IMG/VR virus record: IMGVR_UViG_3300045988_034633
Length of the DNA: 42,903 nucleotides
Source: a virus
Strand: one strand, 5' to 3'
The notes below the pieces were generated by a model. It saw only the letters and a list, made by a program, of their open reading frames with translations. It made no database searches and was not told the DNA's origin. A program made the position numbers and the translations under genes. This document shows, one piece after another, positions 12,017-28,807 of this stretch (the stretch's first letter is position 1; each line of letters begins with the position of its first letter).

Positions 12017-13222
12017 TCAGTCTTCCTCGTTTTCACGTTCCTCAAAAAGGCTTTCAGCTTTTTTCATCTCATCGGTGAGGAATTTCTGACGGTGGGCAAC
12101 GTAATATCTTGCAGTGGTGGAAAAATTTGTGTGTCCCATAATCTTTTTTGTTGCAGTAGGCGCCACATTTGCTTCAACGAGAAGGGTAGTTGCAGTGCGG
12201 CGCAAGGCGTGGGGGGTAATGCGGTCTCTAATCGGAGTGTCGGCTTGGTTTATTCCAAGATCAAGCATCAGCTTACGGAAAGAATGCTCAACATTGTTTT
12301 TGTCCTTTTTGTTTCCGCTTTCAGTGGGAAGAAGATATTTTTCTCCGATGCTCAACAACATCCATTCTGCAAGAATATTCTTGATCGGGTTTAAGATAGG
12401 AATAAAGCGTCCCTTTCCAGCAGCAGTCTTTTCGCCACCGGTCAGATTGCCGTTTTCTAAATCAACATTATCTCTAGGCAAAGAAAGAAGCTCGTCAATT
12501 CTCATTCCGGTGTATAAAAGAACCATTGCGATCTGCGCCGTTAAGTGCATTCCGTTTCTAGGATCGTCTGCAACGGCTCGGATTTTAGCTGTCTCTTCCG
12601 GCGTAAGGATCCTTTCCTTTGGGCCGGGCGCTGGCGGCAGCTCTAACCCATCAGCATAGTTTTGGTTGATAATATCTTGCTTCATGGCATATATGCATAG
12701 CTGCCGAAATAAACCTTTTTGCTTTTCGCATAGGCTTCGGGATTTTCCGTCTGCGGAAAGTTCATCAATAACTTTTTGATAATCTTCCGTTTTAAGAGTG
12801 CGCACTTCGACGTTCCAAAGTTTTTCAGCTTTGCTGTAAGCTCTTACATACCCGTCTTTTGTATCTTCACCGATGCTACTAAAGTGCGTAGCGCTCCATC
12901 TTTTGTAGATCTCCGCAAAAGTGGATTTTAAGCGCTCTGCCGGCGTCCTCTGAGCATTGTAAGTATCCAGGGCCTGAATGGCTTCTCCGGGAGATGCATA
13001 GTGCCCAAGAACTGTTTTGCCTCCATCCTCCGATGGAACAACGGCAACGTACGGTCTGCTTCTATTTCCGTCAGCCTTTTTATATACGCTGCCGCTGCCC
13101 TTTGGGCGGCGGCGCTTTTTTCTTTGCTGCGGGGCGGCTTCCGGCTGCTTCTTCCCGCACCACGGACAAAAAGAAGCACCATCCGGGATCTCTTTCCGGC
13201 AGCATGGTCTCACGCATTTCAT
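12017..13222 (-). CDS. int: Tyrosine integrase with an N-terminal zinc-ribbon
   Basis: CxxC...CPWCG N-terminus. C-terminal HALRRTA...GHTNFSTTARYY catalytic motifs. Confidence 0.9.
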   Translation of the reverse strand: MKCVRPCCRKEIPDGASFCPWCGKKQPEAAPQQRKKRRRPKGSGSVYKKADGNRSRPYVAVVPSEDGGKTVLGHYASPGEAIQALDTYNAQRTPAERLKSTFAEIYKRWSATHFSSIGEDTKDGYVRAYSKAEKLWNVEVRTLKTEDYQKVIDELSADGKSRSLCEKQKGLFRQLCIYAMKQDIINQNYADGLELPPAPGPKERILTPEETAKIRAVADDPRNGMHLTAQIAMVLLYTGMRIDELLSLPRDNVDLENGNLTGGEKTAAGKGRFIPILNPIKNILAEWMLLSIGEKYLLPTESGNKKDKNNVEHSFRKLMLDLGINQADTPIRDRITPHALRRTATTLLVEANVAPTATKKIMGHTNFSTTARYYVAHRQKFLTDEMKKAESLFEERENEED

Positions 13223-16420: not shown

Positions 16421-16533
16421 AACAAACGTAACAAAATGCCTTGACTGTTGCGTTTGTTTGCGCTATACTGTGCTTGTTGGATGTAAACAAACGCAACACA
16501 AGAGACACCCAAAACAATAGGCGTTTGCTTGTT
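16421..16533. promoter_or_regulatory. Operator array, AACAAACG(C/T)AAC-type half sites
   Basis: Sites at 16421-16432, 16447-16459 (inverted), 16485-16497 and 16521-16533 (degenerate, inverted). The 13-bp arms gttgcgtttgttt / aaacaaacgcaac are perfect. Confidence 0.6.
16441..16469 (+). promoter_or_regulatory. Rightward promoter TTGACT-17-TATACT
   Basis: Read directly. An operator arm occupies the spacer. Confidence 0.6.
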
Positions 16534-17022: not shown

Positions 17023-17822
17023 GCGAATTAAACAATCTCATCCCCATTAGCTACGATAACCCGGAGCGCCCCACTGTGAGCGGCCGGGAGCTGCACGAGT
17101 TTCTTGGTGTCAAATCCAGATATAATGACTGGTTTAACAACATGACTGCCTACGGATTTGCCGAAAATGTCGATTATGTGTCGCTTACTAAAAATTTAGT
17201 AAACGGTGGACGCAGCACCGACCACCAGCTGACCATCCCAATGGCCAAAGAGCTGTGCATGATCCAGCGCAACGAGCGTGGCAAGCAGGCCCGGCAGTAT
17301 TTCTTGGCCGTGGAGGCGCAGTGGAACAGCCCGGAAGCGGTCATGCGCCGTGCGGTGCTCATTGCAGACTGCAAAGTGAAAGAGCTGCAAAGCGTGAACC
17401 GCAGCCTGCTGGCCGAGAACAGCGACCTGAAGCCGGATGCAGAGTATGCCCGGGCGGTGTGCGTGGGCAAGAACTGCCGCACCACTACCAGCCTTGCCAA
17501 GGATTACGGCCTGAGCGCCGAGAAACTCAACAGCATCCTTCACGGCCTGAAGATCCAGTACAAGACCAGCGACGGGCAGTGGGTGTTATACGCAAAGTAT
17601 AGCGGCAAAGGTTACACCAAAAACCGCAAATCCACGCCGTTCCAGCACAAGAGCACCGGCGAGTGGGACACCAAGAACACCACCGTATGGACGGAAGCGG
17701 GCCAGCGGTTCATTTATGAGCAGCTCAAGGCCGTGGGAATGCTGCCCAGCGTGGAGCGCAAGCAGAGTGTGGAGCAGATGGAGCTTGCCGCCCGCCGGCA
17801 CAACCAGGACGGGGTGGCGTAA
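17019..17822 (+). CDS. ant: Antirepressor (AntA-like N-domain + KilAC/ANT C-domain)
   Basis: SGRELHEFLGVKSRYNDWF...QLTIPMAKELCMIQRNERGKQARQYF and a C-terminal KilAC-like segment. Confidence 0.8.
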   Translation: MSELNNLIPISYDNPERPTVSGRELHEFLGVKSRYNDWFNNMTAYGFAENVDYVSLTKNLVNGGRSTDHQLTIPMAKELCMIQRNERGKQARQYFLAVEAQWNSPEAVMRRAVLIADCKVKELQSVNRSLLAENSDLKPDAEYARAVCVGKNCRTTTSLAKDYGLSAEKLNSILHGLKIQYKTSDGQWVLYAKYSGKGYTKNRKSTPFQHKSTGEWDTKNTTVWTEAGQRFIYEQLKAVGMLPSVERKQSVEQMELAARRHNQDGVA

Positions 17823-17852
17823 GAACACAAACTTATTTTGGAGGTTACTATT

Positions 17853-18485
17853 ATGAAAAAGCTGCATGTGAAAGCTACGTTTATTGAGCCGGTGCTTGGC
17901 ACATGGCCCGCAAACTCCAATGTGGCCCGCGATTTCATCGCCAGCAAGTCGCCGGATGCTGCAACCATCGAGGATGAAGTGGCGGCTCTTGGCCCTGATG
18001 CGGTAGCCGACAAGGGCATGACCGTTTTCCCGCGTGACCCGGACGGCAATCCGATCTTTTACGATTACCAGATCAAAGGCATGTTTAAGGATGCTTGCGG
18101 TATGCTTTCCCGCATCGGCGGCAAGACCGAGACCGGCAAGAAGAAGGCCTTGAACGAAAGCGGCAAGCTGACTGCTTACAAGAAGGTCATTGACGGCCTG
18201 ATCTTTGTCCAGCCCCGCATGATTTCCATTCATGTGAACGGCGAGATTACCGACTGCCAGCGTCCGCTGCGTGCCCAGACCGCACAGGGAGAGCGCGTGA
18301 GCCTTGTGAACTCAGAGGAGATCCCTGCTGGCAGCACCTGCGAGTTTGACGTAACCCTCCTTGACGACAGCCACGAAAAGGTTGTGCGTGAGTGGCTGGA
18401 TTATGGCATTCTGCGCGGCATCGGCCAGTGGCGCAACAGCGGAAAGGGCCGCTTTACTTACATCGCCTATGAGGTGAAAGCCTGA
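17853..18485 (+). CDS. Cas7/RAMP-like protein (tentative), otherwise hypothetical
   Basis: RBS ggaggt. PIFYDYQIKGMFKDACGML, GLIFVQPRMIS and C-terminal RGIGQWRNSGKGRF (G-h-G-x5-G-x-G) resemble Csm3/Cmr4-type RAMP motifs. Confidence 0.35.
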   Translation: MKKLHVKATFIEPVLGTWPANSNVARDFIASKSPDAATIEDEVAALGPDAVADKGMTVFPRDPDGNPIFYDYQIKGMFKDACGMLSRIGGKTETGKKKALNESGKLTAYKKVIDGLIFVQPRMISIHVNGEITDCQRPLRAQTAQGERVSLVNSEEIPAGSTCEFDVTLLDDSHEKVVREWLDYGILRGIGQWRNSGKGRFTYIAYEVKA

Positions 18486-19030
18486 GAGCAAGGGCATGGC
18501 ATTGACGGCCCTGATTCGCGGAGGCGATGCGCGGCTTGGCAATGGCAAGGCTGAGTTCGATTGGCCGTGCGATGGCGGTGCAGCTCGAGGCGTGGCAAAG
18601 GAATTGAGTGGCAAGGCGTGGTTTGGCGAAGCAAGGCGCAGAATTGCGACGGAAAAGCTCTGCATTGAGTTGCAAAGGCAGAGCAAGGCGAAGAAATGCC
18701 CCGCAACGGCAAAGCTTGGCATTGACATGCTTAGCAACGGCAAAGCACAGTGAAAAATAGCATAGAAACGTTCGGAGCAGTGTACAGCAAAGGCAAAGGC
18801 TATGAGGTGAACTGCTGTGCAGTGGCACTGAGAAGCACAGACAGGCAAGGCAAAGGCGGAGCAGAGCATGGCGGTGCGAAGGAATGGCAGAGAAAAGCGC
18901 TGATGTGATTTGCGAAGGAAAAGTGGTGCACCGTAACGATTCGCTGCGGCAAGGTTTTGCTTCGGATGCATTGGCATGGCAGCGCGACACACTGCGACGG
19001 CAAAGCAAAGAGAAGGCGTTTTATTAAACA
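18486..19030 (+). repeat. Purine-rich degenerate repeat region (GCAA[AG]G array); coding status unclear
   Basis: I count 16 GCAA[AG]G hexamers. For example, 46 of 60 nt are purines in 18841-18900. ORFs are open in several frames on both strands. Confidence 0.6.
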
Positions 19031-19054
19031 TTTTATTAAAAGGAGTGAACGAGC

Positions 19055-19297
19055 ATGAAAAAAGTTATTGTTGGCGTAGCGTCCGTATTGGCAAGCGCTT
19101 TGCTGATGGCCGGATGCAATAAGCAGGTCATCGACCTGACCTATGAATACAGCTGGGCACAGCTGAAAATGCCCGACGGAACGATTGTCGAGGGGAAATT
19201 GAACAGTTGGGACGATTACGAGGGCGACCAGCTGCAAGTGAAGATTGACGGCGTGACATATCTGGTTCATTCGTCCAATGTTGTGCTGCGACATTGA
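19055..19297 (+). CDS. Small lipoprotein
   Basis: RBS aaaggag. Signal peptide with lipobox LLMAGC. Confidence 0.7.
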   Translation: MKKVIVGVASVLASALLMAGCNKQVIDLTYEYSWAQLKMPDGTIVEGKLNSWDDYEGDQLQVKIDGVTYLVHSSNVVLRH

Positions 19298-19317
19298 TAG
19301 AAAGGAGGACACCACCC

Positions 19318-20295
19318 ATGAGTGAAAAGATCATCGCCTACAAGGCCATGGACAAAAATATGCAGTGCCGTGGCAAGCAGTATGAGGTGGGCAAGACATA
19401 CACAGAGCCGGAGGCAGACTGCTGCCACGCTGGTATGCATGCCTGCGAGAACCCACTGGACGTGCTGCGCTACTACCCGCTGAAGGATAGCTCGCGCTTT
19501 TTTGAGGTCGAGTGCGGCGGGAACGTGGATAAAAGCGAAAATGGCAGTAAACTTGCCTGCACTGAGCTGACGGTGAAAGGCGAGGTGAATTTTGCAGGGC
19601 TGGTAAAAGCTACAGTGGTGAATGCCGTTTTTAATCGGGTGAAGGGCAAAGAACCTTTTTCCGGCGGCGATTACAGCACGGCGGGGTCCAGCGGCAATTC
19701 CAGCACGGCGGGTTCCAGCGGCGATTACAGCACGGCGGGGTCCAGCGGCGATTCCAGCACCGCGGGTTCCAGCGGCGATTCCAGCACCGCGGGTTCCAGC
19801 GGCGATTCCAGCACCGCGGGTTCCAGCGGCGATTCCAGCACGGCGGGTTCCAGCGGCGATTACAGCACCGCGGGGTCCAGCGGCTATTCCAGCACCGCGG
19901 GTTCCAGCGGCGATTACAGCACGGCGGGGTCCAGCGGCGATTCCAGCACCGCGGGTTCCAGCGGCGATTACAGCACGGCGGGTTCCAGCGGCGATTCCAG
20001 CACCGCGGGTTCCAGCGGCGATTACAGCACGGCGGGGTCCAGCGGCGATTCCAGCACCGCGGCAGCCACTGGGGCTTATTGCAACGCAAAAGCAGACGGA
20101 AAAGATAGCATTGCCGTTGTAAACGGTGCTTGCGGTAAGGCGCGCGGCGCACTGGGCTGCTATCTTGTGCTGACCGAGTACGACGATGACGGCCGCATGA
20201 TCTGTGCCAAAATGGCCCGCGTGGATGGTTCTGCCATCAGAGAAAGCGTTTACTATACCCTCAAAAATGGCGAGTTTGTGGAGGCCGAGCCATGA
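19318..20295 (+). CDS. Repeat protein: conserved N-domain + 15 x 9-aa SGD(Y/S)STAGS repeats + C-domain
   Basis: RBS aaggagga. The N-domain YKAMDKNMQCRGKQYEVGKTY...CHAGMHACENPLDVLRYY is of a type I recall as DUF7666-like (unverified). Confidence 0.6.
   Translation: MSEKIIAYKAMDKNMQCRGKQYEVGKTYTEPEADCCHAGMHACENPLDVLRYYPLKDSSRFFEVECGGNVDKSENGSKLACTELTVKGEVNFAGLVKATVVNAVFNRVKGKEPFSGGDYSTAGSSGNSSTAGSSGDYSTAGSSGDSSTAGSSGDSSTAGSSGDSSTAGSSGDSSTAGSSGDYSTAGSSGYSSTAGSSGDYSTAGSSGDSSTAGSSGDYSTAGSSGDSSTAGSSGDYSTAGSSGDSSTAAATGAYCNAKADGKDSIAVVNGACGKARGALGCYLVLTEYDDDGRMICAKMARVDGSAIRESVYYTLKNGEFVEAEP
19666..20063 (+). repeat. 27-bp tandem repeat, 14 full units plus a partial unit (in-frame, coding)
   Basis: ggcgattacagcacggcggggtccagc units with few substitutions. 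Confidence 0.9.
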
Positions 20296-25822: not shown

Positions 25823-26311
25823 ATGAAGCCGAAAACGAAATCTGAGCTGATGGCCGAATGGGCCAGCCAGCCCGACCAGCTCAAAAGAGAGCGGGAGGTC
25901 AAGGCTGTCCGCAAGGCGATGGACGACGCCCGCGCCGCGATGCAGGACGGCCTGACCCGGTACGTCAAGAAAAAGACCAAAGCCCGCAGCATGGCAAAGG
26001 CTGAAGCTGACCCCTTTGCTGAGCTGGAAGGCTGGGAAAGCATGGAGCAAATCCAGGATGCCTACGGCTATGGCGAGATCACCGCCGACAAGCGGGACAA
26101 ACTCACCGACCTGTGGGAAGCCCGGGAAGCTGCCAGGAGCAGCCGCAAGGGCGTGGACAAGTACCACGACCTTGTGACGGAGATGCTGGAAACGGCCATC
26201 CGCCGGGTGGGCAATGAGTACGCAGATATGCTGTTTGAGTATGACCAGCAGCGCAGGGAAGCAGAAAAGCAGTGCGAGCAGCTGGCAATGGAAGGGATGA
26301 TGAAGAAATGA
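25823..26311 (+). CDS. Hypothetical helical protein
   Basis: RBS gggggtga then the ATG at 25823. Confidence 0.5.
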   Translation: MKPKTKSELMAEWASQPDQLKREREVKAVRKAMDDARAAMQDGLTRYVKKKTKARSMAKAEADPFAELEGWESMEQIQDAYGYGEITADKRDKLTDLWEAREAARSSRKGVDKYHDLVTEMLETAIRRVGNEYADMLFEYDQQRREAEKQCEQLAMEGMMKK

Positions 26312-26886
26312 GCAGTTCCGTAGAATATGCAAAGTCCGAACTAGCCCGCATCTCAAAAGATGGAGACGGGATGCAAGACACAATCAACAAGAACATCATT
26401 GACATTGTTGAGCTTTTCGCAAGTCAAGGACATAGCGGATTTACCGCTGGATATGCGCTGTCTATCCTGGAGCGACTTTTGCGTTTCAAGCCGATTACTC
26501 CGCTTACTGGCGAAGATGATGAATGGACTAATATGTCGGACGAAATGGGGCAAAGATGTTTCCAAAATAAACGATGCTCAAGTGTGTTCAAGACCACTGA
26601 TGCACAAGGCAACACGATTGAGGTACACGACATTGACGCAATCGCTTATTCCGACAACGGTGGCCTTACATGGTTTACAAGTAGCCGCTTTCGCCAAAAC
26701 GTGACGTTCCCCTATGAGCCACCTACGCACCCGGAAAAAATCTATATCGAATACACGGAAGATGTTCCGCTTGGCTGGTCTAGCGACAAGTATGAGATTA
26801 TCACTGACGACAAGGAACGTATTAAAGCGTTGAGAACCAAGATGCAGAAGAAGCTTGATAAAGCTGAGGAGTCATCATGCACCTGA
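26308..26886 (+). CDS. Hypothetical protein (lower GC)
   Basis: ATGA overlap. 192 aa. Confidence 0.5.
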   Translation: MSSSVEYAKSELARISKDGDGMQDTINKNIIDIVELFASQGHSGFTAGYALSILERLLRFKPITPLTGEDDEWTNMSDEMGQRCFQNKRCSSVFKTTDAQGNTIEVHDIDAIAYSDNGGLTWFTSSRFRQNVTFPYEPPTHPEKIYIEYTEDVPLGWSSDKYEIITDDKERIKALRTKMQKKLDKAEESSCT

Positions 26887-28476: not shown

Positions 28477-28549
28477 ACTCCGGTAGCTCAAGTGGTAGAG
28501 CAGCGGTCTCCAAAACCGCATGTTGCAGGTTCGAGTCCTGCCGGGAGTG
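28477..28549 (+). tRNA. trnW: tRNA-Trp (anticodon CCA)
   Basis: Hand-folded cloverleaf with A1-U72, G73, anticodon arm gcggt-CTCCAAA-accgc and T-arm gcagg-ttcgagt-cctgc. There is one G6-G67 mismatch. Confidence 0.8.
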
Positions 28550-28671
28550 CTTGCGTGCCCTATGAGGGGGCCGCGCAATAGCGGGGCATCCGGCCGCGAA
28601 AGTTCCGGATGCAGCAGCGCCCACCGTTTGACGCCTGTCCAACAAACTGAATGCACGGGCGCTGCTTATAT

Positions 28672-28807
28672 GCCGTCATAGCTCAATTGGAAGAGCGCCG
28701 CCCATTTAAGGCGGGACAACGTTGGTGACACCACGGGAACATCACTGCACAGCCAACCACTGCGCACATCCATTCCATGGGTGCTGGTTCAAACCCAGCT
28801 GGCGGCA
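28672..28807 (+). ncRNA. tRNA-shaped element with a ~68-nt insertion between the anticodon stem and T arm; anticodon loop CATTTAA
   Basis: Acceptor gccgtca/tggcggc (7 bp), canonical D arm, ccgcc/ggcgg anticodon stem, and T-arm gctgg-ttcaaac-ccagc. Total length 136 nt. Confidence 0.4.

What the first reader, a model, noticed from the sequence alone, without database searches (positions are those of the whole stretch)
18486..19030. 545-bp purine-rich array of GCAA[AG]G motifs with ambiguous coding status
Immediately after the RAMP-like gene the + strand becomes strongly purine-rich (46 of 60 purines in 18841-18900). By my count it contains 16 copies of GCAA[AG]G, where well under one would be expected by chance. 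Longer recurring units are also present: gc(a/g)acggcaaagc at 18703, 18734 and 18994, and attgagt(g/t)gcaa(g/a)gg at 18602 and 18663. ORFs are open in several frames on both strands, which is a sign of composition rather than selection.

Alternatively, three short + strand ORFs could be chained by GTGA overlaps: 18496-18753, 18750-18908 and 18905-19027. They lack convincing RBSs.

Possible roles are a protein-binding site array (ori, partition or sponge), a structured or sponge RNA, or a partner RNA for the adjacent RAMP-like protein.
Basis: partly seen in the sequence, partly recalled or inferred. Interest (0 to 1): 0.65.

Follow-up and report, generated by a model that had tools for sequence, protein, structure and literature searches.

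The report
Phage VIPR guide-RNA array beside Vipr
The purine-rich stretch is most likely not a gene or a replication origin but an array of five-base guide-RNA repeats next to a small Cas7-like protein, the two parts of a VIPR system, a phage-borne RNA-guided DNA-silencing system first described in 2026 preprints.

Summary
In detail: 16 GCAA[AG]G on the + strand against about 1.1 expected, and 64% purine. But GCAARG is a by-product of a deeper pattern. Window 18486-19015 consists of about 100 pentamers of the form N-G-Y-N-N (mostly xGCNN). They run in tracts of 5-8 units that start GG(C/A) and end GC(A/G)A. Single nucleotides separate the tracts, which gives a 5.15-nt GC periodicity unique in the window.

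The upstream 210-aa gene (17853-18485) is a minimal Cas7-family RAMP. Three results support this: a PDB profile hit, an AlphaFold model with pLDDT 90.8, and Foldseek matches to type VII Cas7 and Csm3. It also aligns to the Vipr candidate of phage SUSP1, and the W-R residues of the glycine-rich loop are conserved.

In 67 of 82 diverse homologous loci, an array with the same period lies next to the gene on its coding strand. Among 46 near-identical phages the array is a mosaic of 239 distinct tracts, with no frame conservation, no excess RNA folding and no Rfam match.

This fits VIPR (bioRxiv 10.64898/2026.04.26.720920 and .720927): Vipr plus a vrRNA array, here a variant with relaxed G1 ("YNNNG") and staggered tracts. 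I found no targets. It is a new member of a known kind.

The parts
17853..18485 (+). vipr gene: a 210-aa minimal Cas7-family RAMP with an RRM core, a helical bundle around residues 22-51, a long beta-hairpin thumb at 133-157, and the glycine-rich loop G189-I-G-Q-W-R-N-S-G-K-G-R-F201.
   Evidence: A profile of 65 homologs hits type VII Cas7 (8yhd and related entries) at E=2.3e-5 and Csm4 at 2.5e-3. The AF2 model has pLDDT 90.8 and pTM 0.86. Foldseek against PDB gives type VII Cas7, Csm3 and Cas7-11 at probability 1.0 and TM about 0.55. hhalign to the inferred SUSP1 Vipr (KT454805 28474-29061, minus strand) gives E=2.3e-4 over 174 columns, with GQWRN aligned to GDWRP. There are no Pfam, PHROG or NCBIfam hits.
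18486..19015 (+). vrRNA array: about 100 pentamer units N-G-Y-N-N arranged in about 19 tracts. The tracts are mostly separated by a single nucleotide.
   Evidence: The segmentation gives G at position 2 in 96 of 102 units and C or T at position 3 in 84 of 102. The GC autocorrelation peaks at lags 5, 10/11, 15/16, 21, 26, 31 and onward to 103. Power at a 5.1-5.2 nt period is the window maximum.
18486..18745 (+). Sub-array A, which has a coherent phase. Its first ~40 nt are shared by 30-40 of 45 close relatives, so they behave like a leader-proximal conserved segment. The interior tracts are unique to this phage.
   Evidence: The local phase is about -75 degrees throughout.
18746..18812 (+). Weakly periodic linker where the phase jumps by about 165 degrees. 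At 18800-18811 it contains an exact 12-nt copy of the last codons of vipr (18467-18478, CTATGAGGTGAA).
   Evidence: (repeat D10). Reading this as a recombination scar that joined two arrays is an inference.
18813..19015 (+). Sub-array B. Its tracts at 18881-18972 are shared with 23-37 relatives, so this part behaves like a conserved trailer.
   Evidence: The local phase is about +80 to +95 degrees.
18600..18650 (+). The longest uninterrupted tract, with 10 units: GGAAT TGAGT GGCAA GGCGT GGTTT GGCGA AGCAA GGCGC AGAAT TGCGA, followed by the spacer c. I used it for the target searches.
16441..16469 (+). Promoter-like site (TTGACT-17-TATACT) upstream of the early rightward operon that runs cro-like, ant, vipr, array. 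It is a candidate source of the array transcript.
   Evidence: This is a consensus match only. No + strand promoter-like or terminator-like site lies between 17853 and 19055. That the array is co-transcribed from this promoter is inferred.

Best explanation
Window 17853-19015 is a VIPR (Viral Interference Programmable Repeat) locus of a temperate gut phage, probably one infecting Faecalibacterium or other Oscillospiraceae.

**Proposed mechanism.** The 210-aa gene encodes Vipr, a minimal RAMP. The purine-rich stretch is its vrRNA array, transcribed with vipr from the early operon. The mechanism below is taken from the SUSP1 and P. fulva work. One Vipr protomer binds each pentamer and the protomers form a helical filament. 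The conserved G-Y bases are flipped out and held by the thumb and the glycine-rich loop (W193 and R194 here). The variable bases are presented for gapped base-pairing with double-stranded DNA, in which every third target base is skipped. Binding silences transcription of the target, typically a competing phage or satellite.

**What is shown here:**
- The RAMP fold and the conserved G-loop and thumb residues.
- The pentamer grammar of the array.
- Its strict association and co-orientation with the gene across a very large family.
- Its spacer-like modular hypervariability.
- Its lack of coding or folding signal.

**What is inferred:** transcription and processing of the array, filament formation, DNA targeting, the skip rule for this clade, and the identity of the targets.

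**How this clade differs from the characterised type II systems:**
- Position 1 of the pentamer is not conserved, which corresponds to the 'YNNNG' repeat in the preprint's register.
- Tracts are short (5-8 units) and staggered by one nucleotide.
- There are no 3' tails.
- There is no conserved accessory (vap) gene.
For: **Protein.**
- Profile hit to type VII Cas7 and Csm4 through the G-rich loop.
- AF2 model with pLDDT 90.8.
- Foldseek matches to Cas7, Csm3 and Cas7-11 at probability 1.0.
- hhalign to the inferred SUSP1 Vipr ORF at E=2.3e-4.
- Q192-W193-R194 are nearly invariant and R137 is invariant in 65 homologs. They correspond to D177-W178-R179 and R138, the GGY-binding residues reported in 10.64898/2026.04.26.720927.

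**Array.**
- About 100 N-G-Y-N-N units.
- A 5.15-nt periodicity in the window, in L001 and L002, and in all 45 measurable close relatives.
- In 67 of 82 diverse loci (46-83% protein identity; Clostridia, Coriobacteriia, Negativicutes, Chloroflexota, Synergistota) an array passes the periodicity threshold. In most loci the strongest periodic stretch lies immediately downstream of the gene, and in about 9 immediately upstream.
- All 159 detected arrays are on the vipr coding strand.

**Variability.**
- 239 distinct tracts among 46 phages whose Vipr is 93-98% identical; 120 of them are seen in only one phage.
- The shuffling of modules is visible.
- Within homologous modules, G2 varies at 12% of positions and Y3 at 26%, against 37% for N4 and 35% for N5 (Fisher p=6e-4).

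**Context.**
- Temperate phage early region with no cas genes and no CRISPR array.
- The locus matches the published description of VIPR.
Against: - I have no expression or binding data.
- Homology to the characterised SUSP1 Vipr is weak overall (hhalign probability 44.5%).
- No conserved 3' tail or pseudoknot, no hammerhead, and no internal promoters were found. The array is therefore unlike the type II arrays that were tested experimentally.
- Tracts of 5-8 units would give only 10-16 specified bases under the published code. That is short compared with the 9-16 repeats of SUSP1.
- No natural target was found. The 1-nt-skip patterns showed no enrichment over shuffles in about 1 Mb of related loci. 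The 10-unit tract had no exact hit in IMG/VR. Its 17 exact metagenome hits look like chance peptide-level matches.
- No conserved vap-like neighbour exists.
- The G2 and Y3 frequencies from my segmentation are partly circular, because the parser rewards them.
Confidence: 0.85

Rival explanations
1. The region encodes three small overlapping proteins (18496-18753, 18750-18908, 18905-19027) chained by GTGA overlaps.
For: The ORFs are open and the GTGA overlaps exist.
Against: - No Pfam or PHROG hits.
- No convincing ribosome-binding sites (reading of the sequence).
- ORFs are open in several frames on both strands, including a 239-aa ORF on the minus strand. That points to a composition effect.
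- Element lengths in 45 close relatives range from 369 to 605 nt and show no preference mod 3 (13/18/14).
- Modules are shuffled, duplicated or deleted while the flanking Vipr stays 93-98% identical.
- The periodicity is 5.15 nt, not 3 nt.
Confidence: 0.02
2. The region is a double-stranded DNA array of protein-binding sites, such as a phage replication origin with iterons, a partition centromere, or a packaging site.
For: It is a non-coding region dense in direct repeats, inside the early/replication half of the genome.
Against: - The repeat is 5 nt with 1-nt staggers. No motif shows a 10-11 bp or 20-22 bp helical phasing.
- All 159 arrays are asymmetric on the strand of the RAMP gene.
- The element travels with the RAMP gene, not with replication or terminase genes, across unrelated genomic neighbourhoods.
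- Iterons are normally conserved between near-identical phages, whereas this array is hypervariable.
Confidence: 0.03
3. The region makes an RNA decoy or sponge. The Vipr-like protein plus repeat RNA would sequester a host factor, for example subunits of a host type III CRISPR complex or an RNA-binding regulator, rather than guide DNA recognition.
For: - The protein is Csm3-like.
- The phage carries at least one other anti-defence gene, Tad3.
- The RNA is unstructured and repetitive.
- No targets were found.
Against: - A sponge needs conserved binding motifs only. It does not explain the spacer-like turnover of 239 distinct tracts among 46 near-identical phages, nor the concentration of substitutions at the N positions.
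- The characterised relatives act as guides.
Confidence: 0.06
4. It is a VIPR locus, but its guides regulate the phage's own or the host's genes (lysis-lysogeny control or host takeover) rather than rival phages.
For: - It sits just downstream of the lysogeny switch region (HTH repressors, cro-like gene, ant) in the early operon.
- A tract from this window matches the RBS and start region of a leftward gene in 10 related phages. The match is only 12 specified bases and the site is purine-rich.
Against: - There is no self-match above chance in the window: one 10-nt match against a shuffle mean of 7 for the whole tract set.
- The preprint found no self-targeting and found mainly rival-element targets.
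Confidence: 0.1

Closest known systems
Type II VIPR systems of Escherichia phage SUSP1 and a Pseudomonas fulva prophage (bioRxiv 10.64898/2026.04.26.720920; cryo-EM in 10.64898/2026.04.26.720927)
   Same: - A small stand-alone RAMP of about 20 kDa with thumb, G-loop and helical bundle.
- Phage-encoded.
- An adjacent non-coding array of pentanucleotide repeats with conserved G-Y and hypervariable N positions.
- The G-loop W-R and the thumb Arg are conserved.
- No cas genes and no CRISPR repeats.
   Different: - **SUSP1 arrays.** I read them from KT454805 27500-28030, minus strand. They are GGT-NN repeats with both Gs conserved. The vrRNAs are discrete, about 100 nt with 9-16 repeats. Each is followed by a hairpin/pseudoknot tail and separated from the next by AT-rich spacers.
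- **This array.** G1 is relaxed (36-41% G). Tracts have 5-8 units and abut one another with a single-nucleotide spacer. There are no tails.
- **Accessory gene.** SUSP1 has a vap1 gene, whereas no conserved neighbour exists here.
- **G1 contacts.** The SUSP1 G1-contact residues H17 and D177 correspond to T17 and Q192 here.
VIPR 'staggered arrays' and alternative 'YNNNG' repeat classes, mentioned but not characterised in the same preprint (Methods and fig. S18 legend)
   Same: - A repeat consensus in which only G2 and Y3 are fixed corresponds to YNNNG in the preprint's register.
- Contiguous vrRNAs whose ends coincide or overlap by 1 nt resemble the single-nucleotide staggers between tracts here.
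   Different: I could not see the figures or the data tables. The equivalence, and the VIPR type (I-VII) of this clade, are therefore unverified. According to the text, the staggered arrays were not confirmed experimentally.
Cas7 backbone filaments of type III (Csm3/Cmr4) and type VII CRISPR-Cas effectors
   Same: These are the best structural matches. They share the RRM, thumb and G-loop RNA-binding mode, and form a helical protein filament on a guide RNA with periodic base flipping.
   Different: - CRISPR Cas7 binds RNA without sequence specificity, with a 6-nt period.
- It works with Cas5, Cas10 or Cas11 partners and repeat-spacer arrays.
- Here the period is 5 nt with sequence-specific G-Y anchors, the protein stands alone, and there are no CRISPR repeats.

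Membership tests
VIPR system | Vipr protein: a small minimal RAMP (single RRM core, thumb, glycine-rich loop) in a non-CRISPR context | tested here: met
   The protein is 210 aa. A profile hit to type VII Cas7 and Csm4 runs through the G-loop. The AF2 model has pLDDT 90.8, a beta-hairpin at 133-157 and a helical bundle at 22-51. Foldseek gives Cas7 and Csm3 at probability 1.0. No cas genes were found nearby.
VIPR system | Sequence relationship to an experimentally characterised Vipr (SUSP1), including the GGY-binding residues | tested here: met
   hhalign of A1 against the inferred SUSP1 Vipr ORF gives E=2.3e-4, but probability is only 44.5%, over 174 columns. GQWRN aligns with GDWRP. W193, R194 and R137 are invariant or nearly so and correspond to W178, R179 and R138. 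I identified the SUSP1 ORF myself from the locus layout, not from an annotation.
VIPR system | Adjacent non-coding tandem pentanucleotide repeats alternating conserved GGY with variable NN (or a related consensus: NNNGG, YNNNG, NNNNG) | tested here: met
   There are about 100 N-G-Y-N-N units and a 5.15-nt periodicity. The consensus fits the YNNNG variant, since G1 is G in only 36-41% of units. In 67 of 82 diverse loci an array passes the periodicity threshold, and one search places the strongest periodic stretch beside the gene in most loci.
VIPR system | N positions hypervariable between closely related systems while the G-Y anchor is conserved | tested here: met
   Substitutions within homologous modules affect 12% of G2 positions, 26% of Y3, 37% of N4, 35% of N5 and 37% of position 1 (p=6e-4). 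There are 239 distinct tracts in 46 phages.
VIPR system | Predominantly phage or prophage encoded | tested here: met
   The window is a temperate phage genome with integrase, repressors, Ant, SSB, DnaD-like initiator and RusA. Relatives are IMG/VR viral contigs and MAG prophages.
VIPR system | vrRNAs are expressed and co-purify with Vipr as an RNP | not testable with these tools
   This needs small-RNA sequencing and a pull-down. The only indirect evidence is that all 159 arrays are co-oriented with vipr and that there is no terminator between the gene and the array.
VIPR system | Guides match natural dsDNA targets under the 1-nt-skip rule (typically rival phages or satellites), with no self-targets | tested here: inconclusive
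   There is no self-match above chance. There is no enrichment over unit-order shuffles in about 1 Mb of related loci: 41 against 35.8 +/- 3.6. The 10-unit tract has 0 exact hits in IMG/VR. Its 17 metagenome hits are mostly in-frame I-V-K-V-L-E-K-A-I-E-like helices in unrelated genes. No host pangenome was available to search.
VIPR system | Accessory vap gene next to vipr (typical, but not universal) | tested here: not met
   No neighbouring gene family is shared by more than 13 of 83 loci: a small HTH protein, SSB, and Ant in 8 loci. The preprint also reports stand-alone vipr genes, so this does not exclude membership.
VIPR type II (SUSP1-like) specifically | Discrete vrRNAs of about 100 nt with 9-16 GGY-NN repeats, each capped by a conserved structured 3' tail (pseudoknot) | tested here: not met
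   Tract lengths peak at 5-6 units and tracts are separated by 1 nt. There is no excess folding and no Rfam hit. The SUSP1 array, read for comparison, clearly has tails. The locus should not be filed as type II.
CRISPR-Cas (type III / VII) | A CRISPR repeat-spacer array plus further cas genes (Cas5, Cas10, Cas11, Cas6) | tested here: not met
   There are no tandem or interspaced 25-40 nt repeats. The neighbours are Ant, a lipoprotein and a DUF7666/collagen-like protein. The period is 5 nt, not 6 nt.
Iteron-type replication origin or partition centromere | Direct repeats phased with the DNA helix (about 10.5 or 21 bp), conserved among close relatives, and linked to an initiator or partition gene | tested here: not met
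   There is no peak at 9.5-11.5 nt for any mono- or dinucleotide comparable with the 5.1-5.2 nt peak. The array is hypervariable among near-identical phages. It is linked to the RAMP gene, not to DnaD or SSB.
Structured non-coding RNA (Rfam families) | A match to a covariance model, or folding energy below that of shuffled sequence | tested here: not met
   There are no gathering-threshold hits other than tRNAs, and only chance-level hits at E<=10. Folding z-scores are -0.27 and +1.25.

The most novel reading that the evidence does not exclude
This very large gut-phage clade of VIPR may use a recognition grammar different from the characterised one. Only G2 and Y3 are anchored, and position 1 varies as much as N4 and N5. 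The SUSP1 residues that read G1 (H17, D177) are replaced by T17 and Q192. Guides are 5-8-unit tracts staggered by one nucleotide, with conserved GG(C/A) starts and GC(A/G)A ends, and with no tails, ribozymes or vap gene. If so, each pentamer might present three bases rather than two, or the guides might work cooperatively as a chain of short staggered units. In either case the '1-nt skip' code would not transfer unchanged, and the way the array is processed would be new.
Probability: 0.3. Interest if true: 0.7.

Novelty: new member of a known kind. Interest (0 to 1): 0.5.

Why it matters
VIPR was described only in 2026 preprints, as an RNA-guided DNA-binding system that may predate CRISPR. Experiments so far cover E. 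coli and Pseudomonas type II systems.

This window shows a natural VIPR locus in a temperate phage of abundant human-gut Clostridia. The protein family has at least 1687 clusters at 50% identity. The arrays turn over like CRISPR spacers between phages that are otherwise nearly identical.

That makes the clade useful in three ways:
- As a record of phage-phage conflict in the gut.
- As a test of whether the published 2-of-5 'skip' code holds when G1 is not conserved.
- As a case for working out how tail-less, staggered arrays are processed.

For annotation, it also explains a class of 'purine-rich junk with spurious ORFs' next to an unannotated 200-aa gene in thousands of gut virome contigs.

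Tried and rejected
**Known RNA families.** I suspected ROOL or GOLLD at first because of the size and phage context. Rfam gave nothing.

**Tandem-repeat detection.** TRF found nothing because the units are degenerate and staggered.

**Half-helical-turn DNA signal (5.15 x 2 = 10.3 bp) and wrapping of DNA.** I rejected this. No motif shows a fundamental at about 10.3 nt. The non-integer mean is fully explained by 5-nt units plus 1-nt spacers every 5-8 units.

**TRAP-like ring binding, CsrA or Hfq sponges, chi-site clusters.** I considered these from memory only. I dropped them once the RAMP identity and the VIPR papers were found.

**crRNA 5'-handle decoys.** 'ATTGCGAC' occurs at 18643-18650. 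I noted it but did not pursue it. It falls in register with the pentamer units (AGAAT TGCGA c).

**Target searches.**
- The 1-nt-skip rule with skip 0/1/2 controls, applied to the window and to 163 loci, showed no enrichment.
- A three-base-per-unit model showed no clear enrichment. Its apparent skip-2 signal is an artefact of unmasked arrays.
- IMG/VR gave 0 hits with 20 specified bases and 94 scattered, background-like hits with 16.
- The metagenome scan gave 17 hits. These are peptide-level coincidences, for example an AAA ATPase in the L259 group and a dnaX-like ORF in L272 (inferred from its motif).
- A 12-base match of one window tract to the RBS region of a leftward gene in 10 related phages is too short and too purine-rich to count.

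**A conserved accessory gene.** None was found.

**First array-masking criterion.** It was too strict and I redid the analysis.

**VIPR type (I-VII).** I could not assign one, because the figures and supplementary data are not held.
Full report
**Observation.** I read 17700-19500.
- There are 16 GCAA[AG]G between 18488 and 19010, all on the + strand. The rest of the window gives 1.09 per 545 nt on that strand.
- 46 of 60 bases in 18841-18900 are purines. The region is 63.7% purine against a window mean of 54%.
- The 13-nt unit is at 18703, 18734 and 18994. The 'attgagt' units are one base later than stated.
- The ORFs and GTGA overlaps exist.

Tandem Repeats Finder sees nothing. The repeat finder gives only loose families, spaced 31, 52, 57 and 62 nt apart.

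**The real pattern.** The autocorrelation of the GC dinucleotide peaks at lags 5, 10/11, 15/16, 21, 26, 31, 36 and on to 103. That is a period of about 5.15 nt, and it is the strongest such signal in the window (power 2.5 against a median of 0.15).

Cutting the sequence at each GC, and then a dynamic-programming segmentation, show about 100 pentamers N-G-Y-N-N. Position 2 is G in 96 of 102 units and position 3 is C or T in 84 of 102. The units run in tracts, and the tracts are separated mostly by one nucleotide. Tracts typically start GG(C/A) and end GC(A/G)A.

GCAA[AG]G is simply a tract end plus the spacer plus the next G. The 5.15 mean is five-base units with one extra base every 5-8 units.

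The window's array has two phase-coherent halves, 18486-18745 and about 18813-19015. A weakly periodic linker joins them. The linker holds an exact 12-nt copy of the end of the upstream gene.

**Not coding, not a folded RNA, not a helical-phase DNA array.**
- The three ORFs and the 239-aa antisense ORF have no Pfam or PHROG match.
- In 45 close relatives the element is 369-605 nt long, with lengths spread evenly mod 3.
- Folding energy equals that of shuffles on both strands, and Rfam gives nothing.
- No mono- or dinucleotide shows a 10-11 nt fundamental.
- No promoter-like or terminator-like site on the + strand lies between the upstream gene and the next gene.

**The neighbour.** The 210-aa protein (17853-18485) has no Pfam, PHROG, NCBIfam or direct PDB sequence match. 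It belongs to a huge family: at least 7978 word-sharing hits and 1687 clusters at 50% identity.
- A profile of 65 diverse members (A1) hits the type VII CRISPR Cas7 (8yhd and related entries; E=2.3e-5) and Csm4 through the C-terminal glycine-rich loop. The entries were identified through PMC13069675.
- The AlphaFold model is confident (pLDDT 90.8).
- Foldseek places it with type VII Cas7, Csm3 and Cas7-11 (probability 1.0, TM about 0.55).

**Association.**
- In two distant phage records (gene 67% identical in nucleotides) the gene is again followed by 400-550 nt of the same kind of sequence, with the same 5.15 period.
- In 80 IMG/VR relatives (Vipr 91-98% identical) the element is a mosaic of shuffled, duplicated and deleted modules. 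The 5.15 period is kept in each of the 45 short arrays measured.
- In 80 species-representative genome loci at 46-83% identity, the strongest 5.15-nt region usually lies right after the gene, or in about 9 cases right before it. The loci come mostly from Oscillospiraceae, Faecalibacterium and other Clostridia, and also from Coriobacteriia, Megasphaera, Chloroflexota and Synergistota.
- In those loci plus L001 and L002, 67 of 82 pass an array threshold. Tract lengths peak at 5-6 units, and 1000 of 1295 spacers are single nucleotides.
- All 159 arrays detected are purine-rich on the gene's coding strand.

**Variability.**
- Among 46 near-identical phages there are 239 distinct tracts, of which 120 are unique to one phage. 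The array ends are conserved and the interior turns over.
- Within homologous modules, substitutions hit 12% of G2 and 26% of Y3 positions, but 37% of N4, 35% of N5 and 37% of position 1 (Fisher p=6e-4 for G2+Y3 against N4+N5).

**Identification.** A literature search found two 2026 bioRxiv preprints from one laboratory, 10.64898/2026.04.26.720920 and 10.64898/2026.04.26.720927. They describe VIPR systems as follows:
- A small phage-encoded RAMP, Vipr.
- vrRNAs made of tandem YNNGG (GGY/NN) pentamers.
- One protomer per repeat in a helical filament, with the GGY bases flipped out and held by the thumb and G-loop.
- The NN bases pair with dsDNA while every third target base is skipped.
- Transcriptional silencing of rival phages and satellites.
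- Seven types, with array variants: staggered or overlapping arrays, hammerhead-interspersed arrays, and single vrRNAs.
- Alternative repeat consensuses NNNGG, YNNNG and NNNNG.

The library holds no other paper on VIPR.

**Comparison with SUSP1.** I fetched phage SUSP1 and located its locus from the layout: a 195-aa ORF, a 146-aa ORF and flanking arrays.
- Its downstream array reads as GGT-NN repeats, each run followed by a hairpin tail.
- The 195-aa ORF aligns with profile A1 at E=2.3e-4 over 174 columns, with GDWRP aligned on GQWRN.
- The published GGY contacts W178, R179 and R138 correspond to W193, R194 and R137, which are nearly invariant or invariant here.
- The G1 contacts H17 and D177 correspond to T17 and Q192. 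That fits the relaxed position 1 of these arrays. This last link is my inference.

**What differs from the characterised type II systems.** Position 1 is not conserved, tracts are short and staggered by 1 nt, there are no tails, and there is no conserved accessory gene. The commonest neighbours are a small HTH protein and SSB, each in 13 of 83 loci. I cannot assign a VIPR type, because the figures and data tables are not held.

**Targets.** The search was inconclusive.
- No self-match in the window exceeds chance.
- No skip model is enriched over unit-order shuffles in about 1 Mb of related loci.
- The 10-unit tract has no exact 1-nt-skip hit in IMG/VR, and a 16-base version gives only background-like hits.
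- Its 17 exact metagenome hits are mostly in-frame matches to I-V-K-V-L-E-K-A-I-E-like helices in unrelated genes. This also shows that wobble-skipping patterns match at the peptide level by chance.

**Genome context.** The window is a temperate phage genome. It carries:
- an integrase (12017-13222, minus strand) and HTH repressors;
- a cro-like gene (16774), Ant (17019), vipr, the array, and a small lipoprotein (19055);
- a DUF7666/collagen-like protein (19318);
- SSB (22745), a DnaD-like initiator (23323), Tad3 (26272) and RusA (26877);
- tRNAs.

Vipr and its array therefore sit early in the rightward early operon, a usual place for inter-phage and anti-defence functions.

**Verdict.** The finding is a real, non-random feature. 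It is best explained as the vrRNA array of a VIPR system, with the adjacent gene as its Vipr protein (confidence about 0.85). It is a new member of a kind described in 2026, with a distinct array grammar that deserves experimental follow-up. It is not a categorically new element.

Noticed in passing
window 28672-28807 (+): Rfam's tRNA model matches at 47 bits, with an insertion of about 65 nt after model position 44. ARAGORN does not call this tRNA. It lies next to tRNA-Trp (28477-28550). It could be an interrupted or intron-bearing tRNA, or a long-arm variant.
   Followed up: no
window 26272-26886 (+): A 204-aa protein matches Pfam Tad3 (type I Thoeris inhibitor) at E=4.6e-36. The phage therefore also carries a known anti-defence gene.
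   Followed up: no
window 19318-20295 (+), and the ends of many loci among L004-L083: This is a DUF7666 protein with a long collagen-like G-S-S-G-D-(S/Y)-S-T-A repeat. Many IMG/VR contigs of related phages end 1.1-1.4 kb after vipr, inside this repeat. These are most likely assembly breaks rather than genome termini.
   Followed up: partly
window 18467-18478 and 18800-18811: The last codons of vipr (CTATGAGGTGAA) are repeated exactly inside the array, at the point where the pentamer phase jumps by about 165 degrees. This looks like a scar from a recombination that joined two arrays.
   Followed up: partly
L108, L111, L120, L121, L129, L143, L146, L148, L160: In these homologous loci the strongest 5.15-nt periodic stretch lies about 900-1100 nt before the vipr stop, which is immediately upstream of vipr rather than downstream. 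No array detected in any of the 164 sequences was purine-rich on the opposite strand.
   Followed up: partly
L011, L012, L015, L019, L023, L030, L040, L051, L055, L064 (about 1.5-2 kb upstream of vipr, minus strand): The window's tract at 18677-18706 (NN string AG.AA.GA.AA.CC.AA) matches the RBS and start region (AGgAAgGAaAAcCCcAAtg) of a leftward gene in 10 related phages, but has no match in the window itself. The match has only 12 specified bases and the site is purine-rich, so it may be chance.
   Followed up: partly
L259, L260, L263, L266, L268, L270 (metagenome contigs): The 10-unit tract pattern matches exactly, in frame, a conserved E-I-V-K-V-L-E-N-A-I-D segment. In L259, the locus whose ORFs I read, this segment lies in a 347-aa AAA-type ATPase gene in a non-phage neighbourhood, judged from the neighbouring ORFs without a family search. 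I take this to be a chance peptide-level match.
   Followed up: partly
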